Source: Mobula hypostoma (Eukaryota). From it: DNA of 64,000 nt. The stretch lies in assembly GCF_963921235.1 (NCBI RefSeq), contig NC_086108.1, positions 49,850,001 to 49,914,000 of the forward strand, given 5' to 3'. Both the position numbers and the translations under genes were made by a program. Of this stretch, positions 22,383-63,790 are shown piece by piece. Under the pieces are notes generated by a model. That model had not been told where the DNA came from and did no database searches. It saw only the letters and a program-made list of their open reading frames with translations. How positions within the stretch are numbered: position 1 is the first letter of the stretch; the number at the start of each line of letters is the position of its first letter.

Positions 22383-22591
22383 TGTTATGTTTTGTAACTG
22401 CAGAAACTAATCAAAAGGAAAGCACAGGAGTTGGGACACTTTGCTTTCTTGTGAGGCGCTCACATACGGCGTGGTGGCGTAATAACCTATGCCATTCACC
22501 TACTTCTTGTATATTCTTGATTAACAATGCTTAATCAAACAATACGTTTACCAAATTACTCAAATATTACTAAAATATTGAATACGCTACA
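22383..22591 (-). mobile_element. Solo Gypsy LTR, same family as 55968-56179
   Basis: Reverse complement starts tgtagcgtattcaatattttagtaatatttgagtaat and ends gttacaaaacataaca, matching both ends of the 55968 LTR. Confidence 0.75.
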
Positions 22592-49419: not shown

Positions 49420-49790
49420 CTCATAATCTAATCTAATATGACATGGTAGCATTATGACGTACACTATCACATACTTCTTACATACAAACCGAAATAAATT
49501 ATGTAAACAAAGAATGCTTAATCAAACGATATATTTACAATATTACTCAAATGCTACTGAAATATTGAGTACACTACCCTGCTTAGCTATAAACTCCAAA
49601 TCAATATAGACTGCATCTCTACTCAAATAAATAATGTATTGCTCTCTTGTCACCATATATATATAGTGGATGTTGAATGTTAGCAGGTTCCTCGGTTGTG
49701 AAGTGCAAACTTGAGCAAATCCCTAACCTTTCCTCATCGCCTGTACTGTAAGGGATTACTTCATGGCAGAAAATAGCCAGAGCCATCATT
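49420..49790 (-). mobile_element. Gypsy 3' internal region, PPT remnant and partial 3' LTR (family of the 55968 LTR)
   Basis: Reverse complement ..gctaagcaggg|tagtgtactcaatatttcagtagcatttgagtaatattgtaaatat matches the LTR start at 55968. Confidence 0.7.
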
Positions 49791-52477: not shown

Positions 52478-54524
52478 TATTTAGCTAATCATTATATAGT
52501 ATAGTATATATTCTTCCTCCTATATTACTATACAAATGCCTCTCTAACTAAACATAACTATAAATACTTGGTATTACATATTTTCTGAATAACAACAATT
52601 TTCATCAAACTTAACACTATTTAATGCATTACTAAATATCATAACAATATCTACTTTGGCTGCCTTTCAGTATTCCCTCCTCTTCCCTTTGTTTTTAAAG
52701 TTGTCTTATAGCACGATGTCTAGCTCATAAACAGTGCTTCTCCCTTGTACTTCTTTTCCTTCCTATTTTTGCAGTGTGGATCCAGTCACTGCTTTCCATT
52801 CGGTGGCATGTCCCTCAGCCAGGTCACGGCCCCTCCAGTCCTGCTCTGTGAGAGCACCCAAGATGCACTGTTTGCCTAGGACTTGACCTTCCAGTGCAAA
52901 GATGAAGCTGCTTGACTTGTTCTTTCTTTTGTGGATTAGATGGTCACAATCTGAAGTGCCCTGATCAACACAGTTCAGACATAGTACTGGCAGGTAAAGT
53001 CATTGTCCTCTTTAAAATTCCATTATTTTCCCTTTGCCAGCTCTATGCTTCCACTGGCCTTTTTATCATTCTCCTTCATAACCAGGCTGCAGAGCTTGGT
53101 GCAGAGTGAGAAGGCTGTGAGGATTTTGAATTTCCACATAGCACAGGGAATTTTTTAAAGAATGCCCATACTAACCACAGTCTAGCTTGGGCAGAAGAGG
53201 GTTCACCCAGGTCTGGTTTGCAGGGACAGAAATACAATGTAGAAGACACTGAGGCTTTGGCAGCAACAGCAGCAAAATGGTATCGATAAAGTCATTTTCC
53301 AAACCAGTATTTTATTGGTCTTATTCTGTGAATAGGTTTCATTTCCAATGTAGAAAAAATAGAAAAAAGATGAATGGGGAAAATGGACCCAAAAGCTTAC
53401 TTCAGTTCAAAAAAAAATTAACAAGACATTTAAAAATGTACAGTTGAACTGACAAGCCACAGATAATTAGACAATTCTGAAACCTCACCATTAGATTCCT
53501 GATTGACAAAGACAAGTTGTATAAACTAGAAGCAAAGTTGACGAATACCCCAGCATTCCAGGCACTAGAAAAATTACTGCTGGTGAATATGTAAACAGGA
53601 GATATAGGGGCCTTCACAACACTACCACTTTAAGCATCATGTTTCAAATGTGGCTAACAGTTTTTAATTTTTTCAGATGAACAAGTTATCCCGCAATTAA
53701 TGATCTTAGTGCTCAGGATCCCTTCAGCAGTATTAACAATGTTGGTTTGCTAACATCCTTACTGAAAGAATACAATGGTTATTCTGAGATGTTCCAGATA
53801 CCTTTAAAATTACTTCTTTCCTTGAATAAAATTGGGTCCAGAGAGGCAGTGTTTGCAAATGTTTGGGATGATGCATGAGCAATTCCATACTGGGTGTTTC
53901 CAAAAACTCAAATGGTTTATTTTAAGATTTTTTTAAAATTGAAAGCAAACTTGTTTTCTTTCACCAATCCATTTCTCAACAATGTGACTGGGTACTATAT
54001 CCACAAAATCATTACAAATTCATTTTGAAGTTCCCAAGGCATTTTCTATCCCGTAATAAATGAATTGCATCTCCAGGGCAGTTAGAATGTGCTGGACTTT
54101 AATATACCGCTTTGCCTGACTGAAAATGGTAACTTAAGAAAAACATAAATAAATGAAAATATACAGGGGATATAGGCCCCAAGAGTCAAAACACAGAGCT
54201 ACTGGAGTTAGAGGACATTTACAAACAGAACAGCCAAGAATGCTCAAGCATCATATAATTAATAAAGAGAATCAGCAAGAGTTTTAGAAAACATTATATG
54301 AATTTATCTATTTGATCACCAAACAATGGTGGCCTGGGAAGGAGATAATAGAAATAAAAAGTTCTGCAATTTGAGGTTCATGGATCAGACAGTGTTCTAA
54401 CATTTGTAGTACTTTTCAGTAAATAAGAGATGACTGGAATCCAAGATGGTGGTCTGGCAAAGAAGTAATTATCTCCTTCACCACATTTTAAGAACGGAAG
54501 TACAACTTACTGCATAGTCAGATT

Positions 54525-55350
54525 AGTTGGACTTCCTAATGAGTGGATCCCAGACAGTCAGGATACACAAACGCTCCTTCCTCCCCGTCATCCTCAACAT
54601 AGGTGCCCCCCAGGACAGAGTGCTGAGCCCATTGCTGTATACTTTGCTTACATATGACTGCAACAGCCTATCACCCAAGCAATGACATTGTCCAGTTCGT
54701 CGATGACACGACAGTGGTGGGGCTCATCAACAATGATGAGACAACTTACAGAGAGGAGGCGGAGGAGCTAAAGGCCTGGTGCCAGGCAAATAACCTCTTC
54801 CTTAATATCAACTGGACAAAGGAGATGGTTACCAACTTCAGGAAAACTCATACCACTCACACCCTTGCTTACATCAGGAGCACAGTAGTGGAAACTGCAG
54901 GCAGTTTCAAACTCCAGGGCATGCAGATTACACACAGCCTCTCATGATCCTAGAACACATCCCACACAGTCAAGAAAGCTCACCAATGCCTCTAATTTCT
55001 GAGGAGTCTGAAGAGACCTCAACTTTGCACATCTATACTCATGTCATTCTACAGCTGCACGATAGAGAGCATCCTAACATGCTGCATCATTGTTTGGTAT
55101 GGAAACTGCACTACACTGCACAGGACGGCTCTACAACGGGTAGTCAGAACTGCCCAATGCATCACTGGCACCAGCTTACCTGCCATCAAGGACATATATG
55201 CAGAAAAGGGGTAGTAACATCCACACACCTTGCTCATGGACTGTTTGTCCCACTGCCATAAGGGAGAAGGCTACGCAGCATTCTCAACAGGACCACCAGA
55301 TTGAAGAACGGTTACTTTCCCCAAGCAGTGAGGCTGATCAACACCTCCAC
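54525..55350 (+). mobile_element. Rex1/Babar-type LINE RT fragment
   Basis: GAPQDRVLSPLLYTL, IVQFVDDTTVVGLINNDETTYREE, TKEMVTNFRK. Confidence 0.88.
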
Positions 55351-55523: not shown

Positions 55524-56871
55524 CATTCATGCATGGACATGAGTGTCACTGTTGAGGGAGGCAAATACTGGCCTTCTTTAGTTGCCTGAGAAGGAGGCAG
55601 GCCACCTTCCTGCAATAATTTAATGCAGCAGAAAGGATTGCCAAGTCATTTCCTGGACACTCAAGGCCCAACAGCACCTTTCTTATTCTAAAAACAATTT
55701 GCAAAAAGTATTTGCATTCTCATCACCTGCTACTGAGATTTGTGCTCTTCATGTTGTGTTTTATATCACAAAATCCATGCCAACTGAGCCATCACATACA
55801 GGCAAACATATCCAATTTTTGTCTGTATAATTTCCTGCCAGAACCCCCATATACCTTAAGGACTTGTGGAAACGTGGAAATGATATTTTCCCAAATACAT
55901 TCTATTCGTGAAGATCTCCATTAAAACTTAAAGAAAATTTTCCTCTCTGCAAATCAGATTTTATTAGTGTTGTGTATTTAGTATTTCAGTAGCATTTGAG
56001 TAATATTGTAAATATTAAGCAGCCTTGTTTGTTTGAATAATTCATTACAGGTTATATGATAAAATAAGTGAATTGCTCATGTCATGACACTACCACGTGA
56101 ACAAACTAAGACCTGCATCTCTCGGCTCTGTCATTTTTCTTTGTATTAGTTTAATGTTTTGGAGTTCCAAAACGTAACAGTTGCGATAAGGAAGTTTTAA
56201 ACAAACCCACAACAGCTACCTGTCTGTTGAAGTGCAGTGAGATGTTTGAGTTTTAAAAAAAAGCACAGTGAGGAATGGGTAAGTAAAAAATAATCACAGC
56301 ACGTGTTCTTCAGAAGGGGAGAACACACTCAAGTTTAAAAAAGGCAGAAAACAGACAAAGTCACAGGTTCATAAACAGTAAGTAGTGGATGGTAATAACC
56401 ATAAAAAGAGAGCAGAAACAGTTGGCCACATCGGAAATATTGACAAGTTTGATTACACAACAGATAACTGGATTTTGTATACTGAATGAATTGAGCAGTA
56501 TTTTAAAGCAAATGGAATAGCCAATGAGGAGTGAGGGCCAATTTTGCTGAGTACATTGGATTTAAAGGTATAGTTTGCTTGGGAGTTTGAGTGCTCCAAC
56601 CAAAGCAGCAGAAATGATCTTTGCTGATATTGTGAAGGTACTGTAGGAGCAATTAGAACCAAAACCATTGTTCTTTACAGACCACATTAGGTTTCATGAT
56701 CAGAATCAAAAAGAAGTGGTGTTCATTTCAGCATACATGACTGAACTGAAGAGATTATCCAAGCATTGTCAATTCAATGATGGGCTTAATGATGCACTAA
56801 GAGATCATTTAGTTTGTGGAATCTTACAAGAAAGCATTCAAAGACAGCTCCCAACTGAAGCACAACTTATT

Positions 56872-58467
56872 CAGGTTTCCACCGCCATCCGAAGGTAGAG
56901 TGTTCCTATGAAACAGATCATAAGCCAGAATGTCGTAAAGTGAAGAAGCAATTACCATTTATTTATATGGGAAAAATTTGTGAGCGTTCGCAGACCCAAA
57001 AAATAACCTACGAAATCATGCCAAATAACACATAAAACCAAAAGTAACAGTAACATGTAGTAAAAGCAGCAATGATATGATAAATACACAGCCTATACTG
57101 TTTAAAGTAGAAATACTTTTCTACAATCATTGCTGCACTGTTCTCCGTAGCGAAAATCTCATGCAAGCACTCTCAGCAGAAACACACTCTCCAGTAACCT
57201 TTAAGCTATGAAGCTGCCACATCATACCAAATAACGCATAAAAATACACAACTTACATAAAGTAAAAATAACGTATTTACAGTGTAGTATCACTTACCAT
57301 AATCGGGAAGACAGCGCCGAGCACACTGATGATGGTGTGTTAGGCTAAGTCGTCGGAGATTGGGGTGGTGCAGTGGTCCCCAACCTCCAGGCAGCGAACC
57401 AATACAGATCCGTGGAGAATACAGCGAAGCACATCTTTAAGAAAAAAGCTGAAATAAACAAGCTAATTAATTAGGTGCCACTCAACACATAAATGTCGGC
57501 CCAGATCAGAGGTGACACACCGACATTTACGTGCCGGGCGGCACCTAATTAATTAGCTTGTTTATTTCAGCTTTTTTCTTAAAGATGTGTTGGGTGCATC
57601 CCGGCTACCACTGCATTCTCCGCGGCAATGTATTGGTCCGCGGCCCGGGGGTTGGGGTGGTGGGACACTGGGGTGTCATCTCATCGTCGTCTGTTTCCAT
57701 CAGGGCAGGGAGGTCATCTTCTTCTATATCTGCCTGCCTCGATGTTGAAGGTCGAGGTTCATCGTCTGCTGTGGCTGATGTGGAAGGCTTGAAAACGACA
57801 GTATGCTTGACTGCTTAGCCTCGCGCATTTTTCTATCATACAGTTCTTTGTAAGCACTCAAACCATCCTGCAAATATGCCCTAAAGCTACGTATCCTTTC
57901 AAAATTAAAGTCGTACTTTTCTACAATCATTGCAGAGAAAATCTCATGCAGTTGCTTCACGTTCAGTTCCTGGATGACTTCACCTTTGGTCCGTTCGCTA
58001 CTGCATTCGGTTTCCATTTTTATCCTTTCCTCTCCCAATTTCCTCAGCTCTTCATCTATCGGTTCTTAGTCATGGGATGCCAAAACCTCTTCAACATCAT
58101 CTCCGTCAACTTCCACAAGCCAAACTCACTTTGTCTTTACTTCGTTCACCACGATCGAACTGCTTAATTACGTCTAGTTTTACGCAAAGTGTAACACCCT
58201 TATGAGCTCTTTTAGGCTTTTCCGATACCTTAGAACTCATCTTGCTAACGGCTGCTCACAGGCATATGTTTAAGCAATGCCGGCTAGAATGCAGTTCCGA
58301 ATCTGGGGAGGAGCTTGGCTGCTCGGGGTGCACGGTGCTTTTTTCGCACGCTGCCTTTTTTTGTAACAGTGAAAACATCTTCTGTTAGCGAAAACAGGTA
58401 ACTAATGTAGGTCTTTCGTAACAGTGAGGTTTCATAAAGCGAACGCTCGAAAAGTGGGGATCAGCTG
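56872..58467 (-). mobile_element. Tigger-type non-autonomous element inserted in Gypsy gag
   Basis: Interrupts gag between EAQL and FKR..KIAVSMETA; CAG..CTG ends followed by TA; minus strand MSSKVSEKPKRAHKGVTLCVKLDVIKQFDRGE fused to EVDGDDVEEVLASHD*EPIDEEL (TIGD-like N- and C-termini). Confidence 0.85.
57371..57670. mobile_element. Fold-back hAT(Charlie)-like MITE inside the Tigger element
   Basis: Starts cagtggtccccaacc; perfect 44-bp inverted arm cacatctttaagaaaaaagctgaaataaacaagctaattaattag with its complement at ~57545-57589. Confidence 0.65.
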
Positions 58468-59311
58468 TATTTAAAAGAGGTGTTAAAATTGCTGTATCAA
58501 TGGAAACAGCAGAGGCTCAAATGGGTTGTAGTCAGGAATGAAAGTGAGGATAAACAAAATTGCAACATCTAAACAGAAACCAGCCTGGCCAAACAAATTG
58601 TGTTGTTACCATTGTGGTGTCAGCTCACATACACCAGCCTAATGCAGATTTAAAGTCAAAACTTGCAAAAAATGCAACAAAGTAGGACACATACAAAGAG
58701 AACGTCGGGTAGACAAAAATAAATGGACTGAACAGGGAGGAGAAAAAGATAAAAAGTCAAAGTGCAGTGTCAAAAAGAGCACAAATCTGTATACTGTTGA
58801 TGAAAATACTGATAATGACGACAGTGACACAGGACTGGCTAACATTAAGGTTGTCAATGTGAAAACTAACAATGGACAAGCAACATGGCTTACACTAGAG
58901 GTGAACGGCAAGTTAATTAAAATGGAATTGACCTCTGGCTCGGCTGTTTCAGTCATTCAACAAAATGAGTTCGAACCGCATTTCAAAGATACAGAAATTG
59001 AAACCTGGAGGTATCCATCTAAGAACTTACACTGGAGAAAAGATAACTCCTGTGGGAATGACATTCATAACAGTGAAATCCAACAACCAACAAGCCACAT
59101 TGAGCTTGTATGTGATTAAAAACAAGAGGGCCATCACTGTGGGGGTGTGATTGACTGAAACAACTATAACTTGATTGTTGATTCATCCACTATTTATATG
59201 CCACACCCCTTGCAATAGAGTCATCTAAAAGTGAATTAAGAAAGATACTGGATGATGCCACAACTGTCTCTGTGCTATACATCATGAACCTTTGTCCAAG
59301 AGAGTAAACAG

Positions 59312-59860
59312 GTGTTGGAGCCGACCTCTCTGTTTCTCTGATTGGAAAGCACTGGACCTGGAAGGACCATGCTGCTCAGAGAAATCGTGAAAGTAACAAA
59401 AGCAGTGGTCCAAAGGCAACAGTTTTAGTAGGCAACATATCTGACAAAGCTTCTGGTATGATAACCAGGCAGTTACTTGCAAAATGTGTCTTGGTTTTAA
59501 ACTGGGAGAGAATTCAAGGAGCTTCAGGAAAGTTGCAAGCATTTAGCTTTTGTGAGTATAAAGAAACCAGAATCTACTCTGTTTGCATTAAGGTTATTGC
59601 ATGAACTTCAAGTGGGAGACAAAAAGCTGTTTATAGAAGTAGATGCAAGGACCAAAGCCCAGCTGGATGAATGGAAGGCAAAAAAGAGAGGAGTCAATGG
59701 AGATACGAAAACAGAGAATTCGTCAGATGATGTTGTGGTTGAGGAAACAAAAAGGAGAGATCAGATCGTAAAGGCAGCAATAGAAGGATTAGTAAGAGAA
59801 TACTCCAGTGAACTAAATACACTTCTCAAGATCAAGATGCACAAACTAGGAGAAAAAGAA
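59312..59860 (+). pseudogene. RBM25: Processed fragment of RNA-binding motif protein 25 (RRM and following helix)
   Basis: GPKATVLVGNISDKASGMITRQLLAKCVLVLNWERIQGASGKLQAFSFCEYKE/PESTLFALRLLHELQVGDKKLFIEVDARTKAQLDEWKAKK..EETKRRDQIVKAAIEGLVREYSSELN matches the vertebrate RBM25 N-terminus as I recall it; intronless, frameshifted. Confidence 0.93.
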
Positions 59861-60156
59861 AGGTGTTCAGAGCTGTCAGAACCACTTCCTGCAGTCTCAG
59901 AGTCAACTCCCAAAACCACCACGGAGGAGACTCCGGAACCTGAGGTTGTTTTCATGGCCATAAGTCTCACCTGGCAAGCAGAGTGACCCCCTTGTCAGGA
60001 AAGACGTTATCCCACAAGAGTAAGAAATCCTCCACAGCAATTAAATCTTTTAGCCTGAATGGGACAATTTAAAATTTACTCTGCTGCGGGCGCACTTATG
60101 TGGTAAGTTGTATTTTATTTAATATTATGTGTATATAATTGATCAATTCTCTATTG

Positions 60157-60648
60157 CAGGGTTTCTCAGCTGGGACTCCAAGGGTGCCGGGGGTTCTGCA
60201 AGAGATCATGATTTAAAAAAATAAACATCGTTTTTTGAATTTCACATGATACGCAATGCGAGTGCTTGCAGTGGTGGGCAGTGACCGAGCGACCCCCTTT
60301 AGTAATTTCATTAGAGATTTAGTCGAGTCCATTCTCAGTCTTTGACGTGAGATGGGGAGGCCGTTGATAATCGGTGAGGGGAGGGGAGGACGGTAGGCTG
60401 ATAAGGAGTATGAAGTGCGTTTTCCAAGCATTGAATGGACTTGCCCAACTTGGGCTGTGACATCAGTTCTCCCTCCCAAATTACCTCCCCCAACTTCCCC
60501 TTAAGCACCGTCATATCCAGAAACAAAAGGCCTGTTTTGGAGGAACTGTATTGGCACCTGTACTGATGGTGCCCCTTCAGTGGCTGACTCCATGCAAGGT
60601 TTTGTTTCTCTTGTAAAAAAAAAGAAAATCCTGACATTGTCAAAATAA
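60157..60648 (+). mobile_element. hAT (Charlie/Buster-type) left end plus transposase fragment
   Basis: Begins cagggtttctcagctggg (Charlie-like TIR); 60520-60645 reads ETKGLFWRNCIGTCTDGAPSVADSMQGFVSLVKK/ENPDIV. Confidence 0.75.
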
Positions 60649-61599
60649 CTAAACCACAAAACATGCAGCAGTCATTCCTGCCCTTATGACAGCCCATCTA
60701 CTTCACACTGTAGTCCTGGAACCAAGGGCGTGACAGAGAATATTCTAGAAAATGCACCAATTATTTGCATGTGAAGAACTGTAGATTAGATGCAGCATCA
60801 AGATCGTGTTACTGAACCATAACCCACAGCCCAAATTTGGAGTAATGAATATATGAGTGATGTATTACACATTTTAGTTTTTCCCTCTGATCTGAAAGAA
60901 TTGATCAAAAATAATCATAATGATATTTATAGATAACCAAAGACCTAAGATGGTAAAATAAAAGCATTTTTTAAAATTAGAGCATGATTTCAAGATCATC
61001 CCCATATGATTCCAAGCATGGATCAACGGCCATTCCATTGAGAAATCAAAATGTAGAGCCTTACATAATAAACTGGTCTGCAGTTTGATTTCTAAATGGA
61101 CTGCCTTAAACTACAATTCCAATCTAAGGCATTGGCTTCAACATCATGGTTGATTTTCAGGCCATGCCATCAGTCTGTCTTCCCATGTAGTGCCAAATTA
61201 TTGAGGAGTTTCTCCAAACCTAAAAGCTAAAATGTAGCATGTGTGAAGAATCTTGGGTGGAAAGTATTTTTCCATCTGTTCTAAACTTCACTTCAGACAT
61301 AGAGAGCAGGATTCTCCTTTGGTTTTCTACACATTGCCCTTCCTTTCTGAGTCTTGACATCAGACAAACGCCTTTCAGAACAAAATCTAAAAAACTTCAG
61401 AACAAGTATTCCCGAACTTTACAACATTGTTTAACTTTTTATAAAATTCAGCTATAATTCTTATAGAAGATGTCTTTCATTTATTGAGAAAGTTTTCAAA
61501 CAGTTTCAGTTTCATGTCAGTGGTATGGTACAAACATAGATGCGATGTGTAGGAAGTCTGTGAGGAAGGATATGCAGTTGACAGAGCAAAATTTCAGTC

Positions 61600-62812
61600 A
61601 GTGGGATTGGTTAAAATGTGTCTATTTTAATGCAAGATATATCAGGTGATGCACTTAGAGCATGGGTCAGTTCCTGGAACTAACAATGTTGTGCCCATTA
61701 CAGAGACTTGGCTGTCATAAGGGCAGGAATGACTGCTGCATGTTTTGTGGTTTAGTTGTTTCAAACAGGACAGGGAGAGAGGTGAAAGAAGTGGGGGAGT
61801 GGCATTGCTAATCAGGGCTAGTATCACAGCTGCAGAAAGGGAGGATGTCAAGGACGGATTATCTGCTGAGTCAGTGTGGACGTAAGTCAGAAATGGGGAA
61901 TAGAACAGCAGCAATCACTCCATTAGGAGTATTCTATAACATCAGAGACACTAAAGAACAGATCAGGAGGCATTTTTTGGAAAAGTGCAGATATAAAAGG
62001 TTTGTTGCTATGGCGGGGGGTCTTCTATTTTCCTAACTTTGATTGGCGCCTCCTTAGTGCAAAGGTGTATATGGGGTCAGAATTTGTTAGGTGTGCCCGG
62101 TAAGGATTACTGACTCAATATGTGGACAGGCCAACTAGGCGAGAGGCCATATTGGATTTAGTATTAGACAATGAACCAGATCAGATGTCAGATCTCTCAG
62201 TGGGAAAGCATTTCAGAGACAGTGACTACAAATCACTAACCTTTACCATAGCCTTGGAGAGGATATGGGAAAGTATTTAATTGGGGAGGGAGACTTGTAA
62301 TGCTATTAGGTAGGAACTGGGGAACATAAATTGATTGGGAACAGATGTACACAGGGAAATGCACAACAGAAATGCGGGGGTTGTTTAGGGAGCACTTACT
62401 GAGAGTTCTGGATAGGTTTGTCCCAATGAGGCAGGAAAAGGATAGTAGGCTGAAGAAACAATGGTTGACAAGACAATGTGGAACATCTAGTCAAGAAGAA
62501 GAAAGCAGCTTAAGAAGCAAGGGCTAGATAGGGCTCTAGAGAGATACAAGCTAGCCAGGAAGGAGCTGAAGAGCTAGAAGGGGGCATGAGAAGATCTTGG
62601 TGAGTAGGATTAAGGAAAGTCCCAAGGTGTTCTACACATACATGAAGAACAGGAGGAAAGCCAGAGAGAGAATAGGGCTGATTAGAAAATAGAGGAAGCA
62701 TGCAATCAGAGTCAGTAGGGTGAGATCCTTAATGAATACTTTGCTTCAGTAGTCACCAGTGAGAGAGACTTTGATGTTCGTGAGGACAGTGCAAACTGGC
62801 TGAAATACTTAA
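61600..62812 (+). mobile_element. CR1 ORF2 endonuclease/linker fragment (second subfamily)
   Basis: YFNAR, VVPITETWL, GGVALLI, PTRREAILDLVL, HFRDSDY, ILNEYFASV. Confidence 0.8.
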
Positions 62813-63790
62813 ACAGCATCCTGATGTTTGAGGGGGAAAGGGGGACCTTCCTCGACAGTATGTTGTTCCATGTACCAAACCATAAGTAAAAGAGACGTCG
62901 CTGTTGTTGATGCGTAGGGTGGATTTGTATTTCATTACGGTCTGAATATCCACCACATGTGCCCCGTGTCTCTACTCTCATAGTAATGGCTGTATATTCT
63001 CTGCGAATAATCTTGTTTTGTCTTCCTGATGGTGCCAGAAAGCGCATCTCTTGCTGACCTGAGAGCTGTGTTATTGCCCAATCTGATAGCAGTAACCCGA
63101 TGTTTCAGCCATGCCCGGGCCTCGGCTGCCAGCCATGGCTTCTGATTTGCCCTCACGAAGATGCATCTAATAATGGTGATGTCCTCAAGGCACTTCTCTA
63201 TATAGCCAGTCACAGATCCTGCATATTCACCAGTGTTAATACGATGGTTACAGGTAGCTGCCTTCCCACGCTCCTGTGCATGTTTTCAAAACAGTCCCGC
63301 AATACTGCAGTTGCTCCTTCTGGCCAGGGAGTTGGTACAAACTAGGTCTAATGTGTTCTCACCTATGGTAGCAAAGTCCACATTCTGATAGGATTTAGGT
63401 GGGACTGTTTTTTTAAGTTTGCATGGTTGAAGTTGCCAGCAACAATTATAAAACCACTGAAGTATGTGACGTGGAGGATACTGATGGCATCGTATGGCCC
63501 AATGTGCTTCCCCAGCATTAGCCCATGGGGGGGGGGGTGGTATAGACAGCCACAATCACAACAGCATTGAACTCCCTCCGTAAATAGAAAGGCCTGAAGC
63601 TCACTGTTAAAAACTCTACCAGAGGCGAACACTACCGAGGCGCTCACACACCAGTTCTTTTTAACGTAGATACATTAACCTCCCTGCAGGTCACGGGATT
63701 TCTGTCTGCCCAAAAGCTGATGGAACCCTCTAGATGGCCGCTTTAGGGATGGTTTCCTGGAGCCTTGTTTCTGTCAGAATGCTTCATCAC
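62813..63790 (-). mobile_element. Rex1/Babar-type LINE endonuclease region
   Basis: FIIVAGNFNHANLK, TIGENTLDLV, GYIEKCLED..RANQKPWLAAE..IRKTKQDY. Confidence 0.8.

What the first reader, a model, noticed from the sequence alone, without database searches (positions are those of the whole stretch)
55968..60156. Spliced RBM25 mRNA fragment captured inside a Gypsy LTR retrotransposon, replacing RT/RNaseH/integrase
Seen: order is LTR, PBS, gag, protease, start of the RT linker (KILDDATTV, ends ~59268), then a co-oriented intronless RBM25 segment (59312-59860), then the pol C-terminal tail (RRYPTRVRNPP). The several kb of RT-RH-IN expected between them is missing. There is no poly(A) or TSD around the RBM25 piece, and the right junction falls in a purine run (agaaaaagaaagg) that could serve as microhomology. 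Known: LTR elements can capture host mRNA by template switching during reverse transcription, a route distinct from LINE-made retrocopies. Inference: this is such a capture, and it may belong to a non-autonomous RBM25-RRM-carrying family. This copy is decayed.
Basis: partly seen in the sequence, partly recalled or inferred. Interest (0 to 1): 0.85.

Follow-up and report, generated by a model that had tools for sequence, protein, structure and literature searches.

The report
Retrotransposon family carrying spliced RBM25 exons
This is a dead copy of a jumping gene whose copying enzymes are replaced by an intron-free piece of the host splicing-factor gene RBM25, likely picked up in one copying error long ago, and the hybrid now sits at more than a thousand places in this genome.

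Summary
Confirmed and extended. The window holds a decayed Gypsy-type element (5' LTR, gag, protease, pol tail) whose RT-RNaseH-integrase core (up to about 3.2 kb in parent copies) is replaced by spliced RBM25 exons. The intron-bearing host gene was found; no copy keeps intron flanks (0 of 100). The capture starts at 59256, not 59312: a 7-nt microhomology joins pol in frame to the end of one RBM25 exon and a 48-nt cassette exon. Longer copies show the first capture ran about 1.07 kb over eight splice junctions to a 9-nt microhomology; the window is a short deletion derivative that also lacks its 3' LTR. The left junction occurs at 1,009 loci (control 0; about 1,800-2,000 estimated), with different 5-bp target duplications, about 18% pairwise divergence, neutral decay, and matches in three other organisms' runs. 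Best reading: one template-switch capture, then spread in trans as a non-autonomous family. The mechanism is known (Tan et al. 2016); the scale is far above the examples I read. No sign of selection on the cargo. The scan found this same family before, at ten other places listed for this genome.

The parts
55968..56179 (+). 5' LTR (TG...CA, 212 bp, shortened by deletion against about 245 bp in sister copies)
   Evidence: 69% over 246 columns to the 3' LTR of sister copy L059
56180..56191 (+). decayed primer-binding-site-like stretch directly behind the LTR
   Evidence: same position and similar letters in sister copies; the priming tRNA was not identified
56380..56869 (+). gag, 5' part (start approximate; broken by stops and frameshifts)
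   Evidence: matches sister and parent copies; family-wide open frame reaches at least 1,289 nt upstream of the junction
56872..58468 (.). later insertion with terminal inverted ends and a 70-nt internal inverted repeat; looks like a Tigger/pogo-type DNA transposon (label recalled, not confirmed by a call)
   Evidence: absent from sister copies, which join 56869 to 58469; ends; inverted repeat; no family named by Pfam or the Atlas
58469..59255 (+). gag 3' part with zinc knuckle (58658-58702), protease and start of the RT linker, frameshifted
   Evidence: zf-CCHC E 0.01; aspartyl protease hits E 0.003, below cut-off, in the matching part of parent copy L187
59256..59262 (+). left switch point: 7-nt microhomology TGCCACA shared by pol and the end of an RBM25 exon, same reading frame in both
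59263..59265 (+). last 3 nt of RBM25 coding exon 'E2' (my working numbering)
59266..59311 (+). RBM25 48-nt in-frame cassette exon (46 nt left here)
   Evidence: host 109368-109415 of the fetched gene, AG...GT bounded; 83% identity
59312..59481 (+). RBM25 exon 'E3' (start of RRM)
   Evidence: 86% to host exon
59482..59539 (+). RBM25 exon 'E4'
   Evidence: 88%
59540..59701 (+). RBM25 exon 'E5' (end of RRM)
   Evidence: 89%
59702..59843 (+). RBM25 exon 'E6', 5' four fifths
   Evidence: 90%
59844..59861 (+). purine remnant: start of exon 'E8' fused to the 9-nt right microhomology of exon 'E9'; E7 and most of E8 deleted
   Evidence: comparison with long, medium and short copies
59862..60058 (+). 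pol C-terminal tail (ends RRYPTRVRNPP...stop); out of frame with RBM25
   Evidence: continues integrase in parent copies
60059..60156 (+). 3' untranslated stretch up to a cut polypurine tract; 3' LTR lost
   Evidence: sister copies go on into a 3' LTR about 30 bp further; none here

Best explanation
This is a decayed copy of a Gypsy-type LTR element whose RT, RNaseH and integrase are replaced by spliced RBM25 exons and which is present at over a thousand loci; it likely arose once, when reverse transcriptase switched from the element's RNA to a co-packaged RBM25 mRNA and back, and was then likely copied by enzymes of intact parent elements. Shown: spliced cargo including a cassette exon, replacement of up to about 3.2 kb of pol, 7- and 9-nt microhomologies at the two primary junctions, one shared left junction, independent insertions with 5-bp target duplications, a series of long, medium and short forms differing by deletions in the purine-rich RE/RD-repeat region, and neutral decay since insertion. 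Inferred: the template switch, mobilisation in trans, the order long to medium/short, and that the cargo is a passenger. The founding element would have encoded a Gag-protease-RBM25(RRM) fusion, since the left joint is in frame; whether that protein was made or mattered is untested.
For: Host gene with introns found at G000:C1; 0 of 100 unique copies carry any of 11 intron flanks tested. 40 of 40 scored hits to 59150-60160 cover most of the query at 79-84%, window aside. Exact 18-nt chimeric junction at 247 loci and parent-type junction at 618, controls 0; 24-nt exon-exon junction with up to 3 mismatches at 1,009 loci, control 0; that probe finds 20 of 40 and 10 of 18 sampled copies, hence about 1,800-2,000. 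Spacing from pol anchor to exon E3 is 58 nt in 38 of the 55 measurable copies (of 100) and never 10, the value without the cassette exon. Microhomology of 7 or more and 9 or more nt arises in 7.3e-4 and 1.1e-4 of 400,000 random breakpoint pairs. 6 of 16 copies with both outer ends have a 5-bp duplication at 4-5 of 5 letters, all different; a seventh fits after a 1-nt shift. Parent-type copies hold RNaseH then integrase in the replaced span, which measures 1.6-3.2 kb in the 11 of 18 where the tail was found. No near-fixed difference between 38 chimeric and 31 parent copies over 1,454 gag-protease columns, largest frequency gap 0.62. Private changes N/S 3.14 against 3.3 expected from opportunity; near-star tree, terminal 9.66 against internal 0.50.
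Against: Sequence cannot tell a template switch in the particle from microhomology-guided recombination of an RBM25 cDNA with an element. This copy lacks its 3' LTR, so its own target duplication cannot be read; 9 of 16 two-ended copies show no clear duplication (decay or wrong pairing). 22 of 24 near-fixed differences from the host exons are synonymous, more than the 13 private synonymous changes per copy (Poisson p 0.03; 0.10 without hypermutable sites): not explained. The commonest spacing across the deleted repeat keeps the same frame in short (44 nt, 14 of 39), medium (4 of 6 measurable) and undeleted forms, a weak hint (about 1 in 9 by chance) that the cargo frame was not indifferent.
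Confidence: 0.85

Rival explanations
1. The capture happened as above, but the in-frame Gag-protease-RRM product (or the RBM25 RNA stretch itself) helped the element to be packaged, exported or escape silencing, so the cargo was selected during the burst.
For: Left joint in frame; frame 0 has no shared stop for 1,289 nt upstream against 48 and 31 shared-stop columns in the other frames; stop-free runs from protease into RBM25 survive in L043, L054, L051, L038. All forms keep the RRM and lose the RE/RD repeat; modal deletions keep the frame to the same stop. Slight synonymous excess against the host.
Against: An in-frame joint has a 1-in-3 prior. The few changes that differ between forms are mostly non-synonymous (4 of 5). 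Parent-type junctions outnumber chimeric ones 618 to 247, and parent copies with RBM25-free internal deletions also recur, so shortened elements spread without cargo. Purine repeats delete easily. None of the 150 listed best hits to P0001 exceeds 85% identity.
Confidence: 0.12
2. An RBM25 cDNA (made by any reverse transcriptase) recombined with an integrated or free Gypsy DNA through the two microhomologies; the product then spread as a non-autonomous element.
For: Gives the same junctions and the same replacement.
Against: The right-hand purine site is reused by RBM25-free deletion forms (L123, L129; L181, L188) and L140, as expected of an RT switching hotspot; Tan et al. describe such a site for BLASTOPIA (PMC5131818, section 5 read). 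The cargo is in sense orientation.
Confidence: 0.07
3. A LINE-made RBM25 processed pseudogene inserted into a Gypsy element, and a later deletion removed its 3' end, poly(A) and most of pol.
For: LINE-like fragments are common in the window (frames; label recalled). A secondary deletion could hide the hallmarks.
Against: Microhomology at both primary junctions; cargo is an internal mRNA piece ending far before the 3' end; no copy seen with more RBM25 than exon E9's first 31 nt joined to the tail, or with pol between the junctions.
Confidence: 0.04
4. Assembly artefact or segmental duplication of one locus.
For: None beyond the two top P0001 hits lying 1.2 Mb apart on one contig.
Against: Copies on many contigs, 11-28% diverged pairwise, each with its own flanks and target duplication; junction-bridging contigs in independent runs.
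Confidence: 0.01

Closest known systems
LTR-mediated retrocopies of animals (Tan et al. 2016, Genome Res, PMC5131818; abstract, 12 passages, section 5 and Discussion read)
   Same: Partial spliced mRNA replaces internal ORFs; microsimilarity at both switch points (their median 6 bp); no poly(A) or duplication round the cargo; sense orientation; secondary retroposition with shared switch points; a reused switch-back site.
   Different: Their cases are young and few (18 insertion sites for nine fly retrocopies; 5, 4, 8 and 3 loci in zebrafish, chicken, mouse, human); this one has 1,009 counted loci, is old, is shared by several organisms, comes in nested deletion forms and has an in-frame Gag-protease joint. 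No cartilaginous fish was in their set.
Maize Bs1 (as described in PMC5131818, Discussion; primary papers not read)
   Same: Non-autonomous LTR element with spliced host exons, all copies sharing switch points.
   Different: Bs1 has one to five copies, three parent genes and a reported hybrid protein; here one parent gene, over a thousand copies, none seen conserved.
HERV-K capture of FAM8A1 (as cited in PMC5131818; primary paper not read)
   Same: Vertebrate LTR element with host mRNA and microsimilarity, now a pseudogene.
   Different: Retroviral (ERV) rather than Gypsy carrier; described there as a single case.
Histone H3 amplified by a hAT transposon in Pseudocercospora (PMC6710886; abstract read)
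   Same: Housekeeping gene captured once and amplified to hundreds of dead copies, shared by related species.
   Different: DNA transposon, fungal, no RNA step implied by the carrier.

Membership tests
LTR-mediated retrocopy (Tan et al. 2016) | Cargo is spliced host mRNA | tested here: met
   Five junctions in the window, eight in long copies; introns of 1.1-6.1 kb absent; 0 of 100 copies with intron flanks
LTR-mediated retrocopy (Tan et al. 2016) | Cargo replaces part of the internal ORF rather than interrupting it | tested here: met
   Parent span up to 3,030-3,240 nt with RT, RNaseH and integrase hits is absent
LTR-mediated retrocopy (Tan et al. 2016) | Microsimilarity at both switch points | tested here: met
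   7 nt left (in the window), 9 nt right (clear in long copies; decayed in the window); chance 7.3e-4 and 1.1e-4
LTR-mediated retrocopy (Tan et al. 2016) | No poly(A) or target duplication round the cargo | tested here: met
   Read from the sequence
LTR-mediated retrocopy (Tan et al. 2016) | Both LTRs present in the product | tested here: met
   Met for the family (16 of 39 sister copies with both outer ends); this copy has lost its 3' LTR
LTR-mediated retrocopy (Tan et al. 2016) | Secondary retroposition with shared switch points | tested here: met
   1,009 loci with the left junction; distinct 5-bp duplications
LTR-mediated retrocopy (Tan et al. 2016) | Co-transcription from the LTR | not testable with these tools
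   No run on record as RNA was listed; only contigs of guessed RNA runs
Ty3/Gypsy LTR retrotransposon (parent element) | Domain order protease, RT, RNaseH, integrase | tested here: met
   RNaseH (E 3.5e-14) precedes rve (E 1.5e-10) in L189; RT (E 0.0035) and protease (E 0.003) hits are below cut-off
Ty3/Gypsy LTR retrotransposon (parent element) | TG...CA LTRs, PBS, polypurine tract, 4-6 bp target duplication, no env | tested here: met
   About 245-bp LTRs, 5-bp duplications, purine tract before the 3' LTR, about 130 bp between pol stop and LTR
Ty3/Gypsy LTR retrotransposon (parent element) | RT phylogeny placing it in a named Gypsy lineage or Repbase/Dfam family | not tested
   No repeat library on hand; no RT tree built
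LINE-made processed pseudogene | Intact 3' end with poly(A) and own target duplication | tested here: not met
   Cargo is internal and ends in exon E9 at a microhomology
Domesticated retrogene | A conserved, open copy under purifying selection | tested here: not met
   Best 150 listed hits (150 scored of 5,555 candidates) are 64-85% identical to P0001, most with stops; window copy frameshifted; N/S neutral

The most novel reading that the evidence does not exclude
A vertebrate retrotransposon family that put a host splicing factor's RNA-binding domain where its reverse transcriptase had been, made a Gag-protease-RRM polyprotein, and was favoured for it (better packaging or escape from silencing), trimming the RE/RD repeat while keeping the frame; its roughly two thousand copies could also have fed RBM25-matching small RNAs back on an essential splicing gene.
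Probability: 0.12. Interest if true: 0.8.

Novelty: new member of a known kind. Interest (0 to 1): 0.5.

Why it matters
It shows that a single LTR gene-capture can become a major repeat family in a vertebrate: about two thousand copies against a handful in the published cases I read. It gives a large natural series for asking whether host cargo is a passenger, a dated fossil of an RBM25 splice isoform with a 48-nt cassette exon, and a marker older than the split of at least four related organisms. Practically, it will confuse RBM25 mapping and annotation, and pipelines that drop repeat-overlapping candidates or demand a 3'-end junction (as in PMC13320880, methods passage read) would likely miss it.

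Tried and rejected
Pfam and PDB searches with the window's own broken RBM25 frames found nothing; a sister copy was used instead. PF01480 (PWI) in the genome gave three hits, none at the RBM25 locus; a protein query found it. A search for annotated fusion proteins with a 244-aa protease-linker/RBM25 frame of L043 returned 109 proteins, none aligning over more than 84% and the named ones all RBM25-type or hypothetical; only lengths 134-427 were searched. No 3' LTR in the window or 30 kb beyond. Expression: no RNA holder listed; contigs of a guessed RNA run (X20) cover the stretch and one bridges the right junction, but DNA may be in it, so it is no evidence of transcription. Inclusion of the cassette exon in RNA reads remains untested. 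Only 3 of the 7 other organism labels (B, C, F) were laid; run kinds are guesses. The inserted element at 56872-58468 got no family name. Literature: RBM25 + retrotransposon + Gypsy gave 0 papers; RBM25/stingray/elasmobranch/retrocopy terms gave 2 listed, neither mentioning RBM25; searches listed no report of this family (listings only). Repbase, Dfam and subscription journals were not searched; no supplements were read, and supplementary retrocopy tables (PMC13320880, PMC5131818) might bear on copy numbers. Rows dropped: 5 duplicate loci of 105; 12 of 100 copies below 85% cover or 80% identity for the site analysis; L184 left out of the parent set (wrong strand fetched); 23 of 39 sister copies lacked one scorable outer end.
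Full report
Observation. The window (G000:C50:49850001-49914000) shows, on the + strand, an LTR at 55968-56179, a decayed PBS-like stretch, gag, a protease region, an RBM25-like stretch and a pol C-terminal tail. The frames are broken. A 1.6-kb insertion at 56872-58468 is absent from sister copies, which join 56869 to 58469. The element stops at 60156 inside its purine tract; no 3' LTR lies in the window or the next 30 kb.

The cargo. A better-kept sister copy hits RRM_1 and RBM25 proteins, best a shark isoform P0001 at 86%. The host gene lies on G000:C1, minus strand. Its exons match P0001 at 14 of 14 and 54 of 54 residues in two exons, so the host is likely a cartilaginous fish. The window aligns to a 48-nt exon and four further exons at 83-90% with the introns (3,425, 1,738, 2,778 and 4,824 nt, and 5,805 nt before the 48-nt exon) gone. 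The 48-nt exon is AG/GT-bounded and in frame; it is present in P0001 and absent from the six bony-fish and frog proteins I read, so I call it a cassette exon; its inclusion in RNA was not tested. None of 100 unique copies holds any of 11 intron flanks. Exon numbers E2-E9 are my working labels.

Junctions. Of the 29 best other hits to the protease region, 14 continue into RT and 15 into RBM25. The two types part after TGCCACA, which also ends RBM25 exon E2 three bases before its donor: a 7-nt microhomology, in the same frame in both genes. Of the 29 best other hits to the tail, 19 carry RBM25 by BLAST and two more carry short remnants by eye. Long copies (L085, L093, L099, L100, L139) run through E7 and E8 into E9 and switch back at GAGAAGAAA, shared with the pol tail of parent copies. 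The first capture thus spanned about 1,072 nt of today's mRNA and eight splice junctions. Random breakpoint pairs give 7 or more matching bases in 7.3e-4 and 9 or more in 1.1e-4 of 400,000 trials. The replaced span is 1.6-3.2 kb in the 11 of 18 parent-type copies where the tail was found, the longest 3,030, 3,033 and 3,240 nt, with RNaseH then integrase hits above cut-off and a weak RT hit.

Forms. Among 88 copies analysed (of 100 unique), 9 are long, 13 medium and 66 short; the sample is biased to short by the query, and in the set chosen by the left junction alone the split is 2, 6, 14 of 22 classed (30 fetched). Medium and short forms lack E7 and parts of the purine-rich RE/RD repeat. The window is short. 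The order long to medium/short is inferred from nested content.

Copy number and spread. The exact 18-nt chimeric junction occurs 247 times and the parent-type one 618 times, controls 0. A 24-nt probe across the E2/cassette junction, which cannot match the intron-bearing gene, occurs at 1,009 loci with up to 3 mismatches, control 0. It detects 20 of 40 and 10 of 18 sampled copies, so about 1,800-2,000 copies keep this junction (estimate). The left joint is the same throughout: spacing 58 nt in 38 of 55 measurable copies, never the 10 expected without the cassette. Of 16 sister copies with both outer ends, 5 have an exact and 1 a near 5-bp target duplication, all different, and one more fits after a 1-nt shift: independent integrations.

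Age and selection. Copies differ 13.5% from the host exons and 18.4% from each other; LTR pairs of 15 copies are 77-86% identical over aligned columns. The tree is nearly a star. Private changes are neutral (N/S 3.14 against 3.3; rates 0.11, 0.10, 0.09 by codon position). Near-fixed differences from the host are 22 synonymous and 2 not, most simply host-gene drift under purifying selection since the capture; the count is somewhat above the 13 private synonymous changes per copy (p 0.03 to 0.10), which I cannot explain. Chimeric and parent copies show no fixed difference in gag-protease, so they spread from the same source at about the same time. No conserved retrogene appears among the best 150 listed hits to P0001. 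Contigs from runs labelled organisms B, C and F hold the intronless stretch in many variants; pieces cross the E4/E5 joint in all three and one in C bridges the right junction. The family therefore likely predates their split; I give no date in years.

Reading frame. The junction frame has no shared stop for 1,289 nt upstream, against 48 and 31 shared-stop columns in the other two frames, so gag, protease and RBM25 formed one frame. At the right junction RBM25 runs into a different frame of the pol tail and stops after about 50 codons. The commonest spacing across the deleted repeat keeps this frame in short and medium forms; chance is about 1 in 9. Against selection: 4 of 5 sites that differ between forms are non-synonymous, parent-type junctions outnumber chimeric ones, and RBM25-free deletion forms recur at the same right-hand site.

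How it works. Best reading (0.85): RT switched onto a co-packaged RBM25 mRNA at the purine site and back at the 7-nt site, giving a two-LTR element without enzymes; it kept LTRs, PBS, purine tract and gag-protease, was copied in trans by its parent during one burst, shed the unstable repeat, and decayed. Shown: structure, junctions, copy number, independent insertion, decay. Inferred: switch, trans-mobilisation, passenger status.

Known kinds. This meets the features of LTR-mediated retrocopies in Tan et al. 2016 (PMC5131818; abstract, passages, section 5 and Discussion read), except co-transcription, which I could not test. Their secondary amplifications are small, and Bs1 has one to five copies as cited there. 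A hAT-borne histone H3 reached hundreds of copies in fungi (PMC6710886, abstract). My searches found no paper on this family (listings of 34, 49, 50, 64, 65, 68), but repeat libraries were not searched. The scan's own notes describe the same family at ten other places in this genome; I consulted them only after my analysis and they are not independent support.

Verdict. New member of a known kind, unusual in scale; interest 0.5.

Noticed in passing
L123, L129; L181, L188; L140: An RBM25-free deletion form of the parent joins the integrase zinc-finger region to the same purine site in the pol tail that ends the RBM25 capture; L140 joins the cassette exon straight to it. Looks like a switching or deletion hotspot.
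   Followed up: partly
G000:C1:99832586-99832633 (minus strand; in L110, L200): 48-nt in-frame RBM25 cassette exon whose last 14 residues match shark P0001 exactly and which is missing from six bony-fish and frog RBM25 proteins read; possibly a conserved cartilaginous-fish isoform.
   Followed up: partly
window 56872-58468: Later insertion with inverted ends, a 70-nt internal inverted repeat (57430-57589) and a 112-aa frame on the minus strand (57724-58065); looks like a Tigger/pogo-type DNA transposon (recalled label); also seen near L054 and L066.
   Followed up: partly
window 49481-49577 and 22523-22591 (minus strand): Further fragments of the same LTR family in the window.
   Followed up: no
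window 60157-60400: Another repeat begins exactly where the element is cut in its purine tract; multi-copy in laid runs; a 65-nt inverted pair lies at 60630-60694 and 61710-61774.
   Followed up: no
window 54500-55350 and 61700-63750: Decayed LINE-like reading frames flank the element (label recalled).
   Followed up: no
L204 and L205 (G000:C96:22.42 Mb and 23.61 Mb): The two best intronless hits to P0001 lie in opposite orientation 1.2 Mb apart with near-equal scores; possibly a segmental duplicate pair.
   Followed up: no
RBM25 part of 88 copies against host exons: 22 near-fixed synonymous differences against 13 private synonymous changes per copy; 12 go host A/T with element G/C and 7 the other way (all 24 sites). 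Unexplained mild excess.
   Followed up: partly
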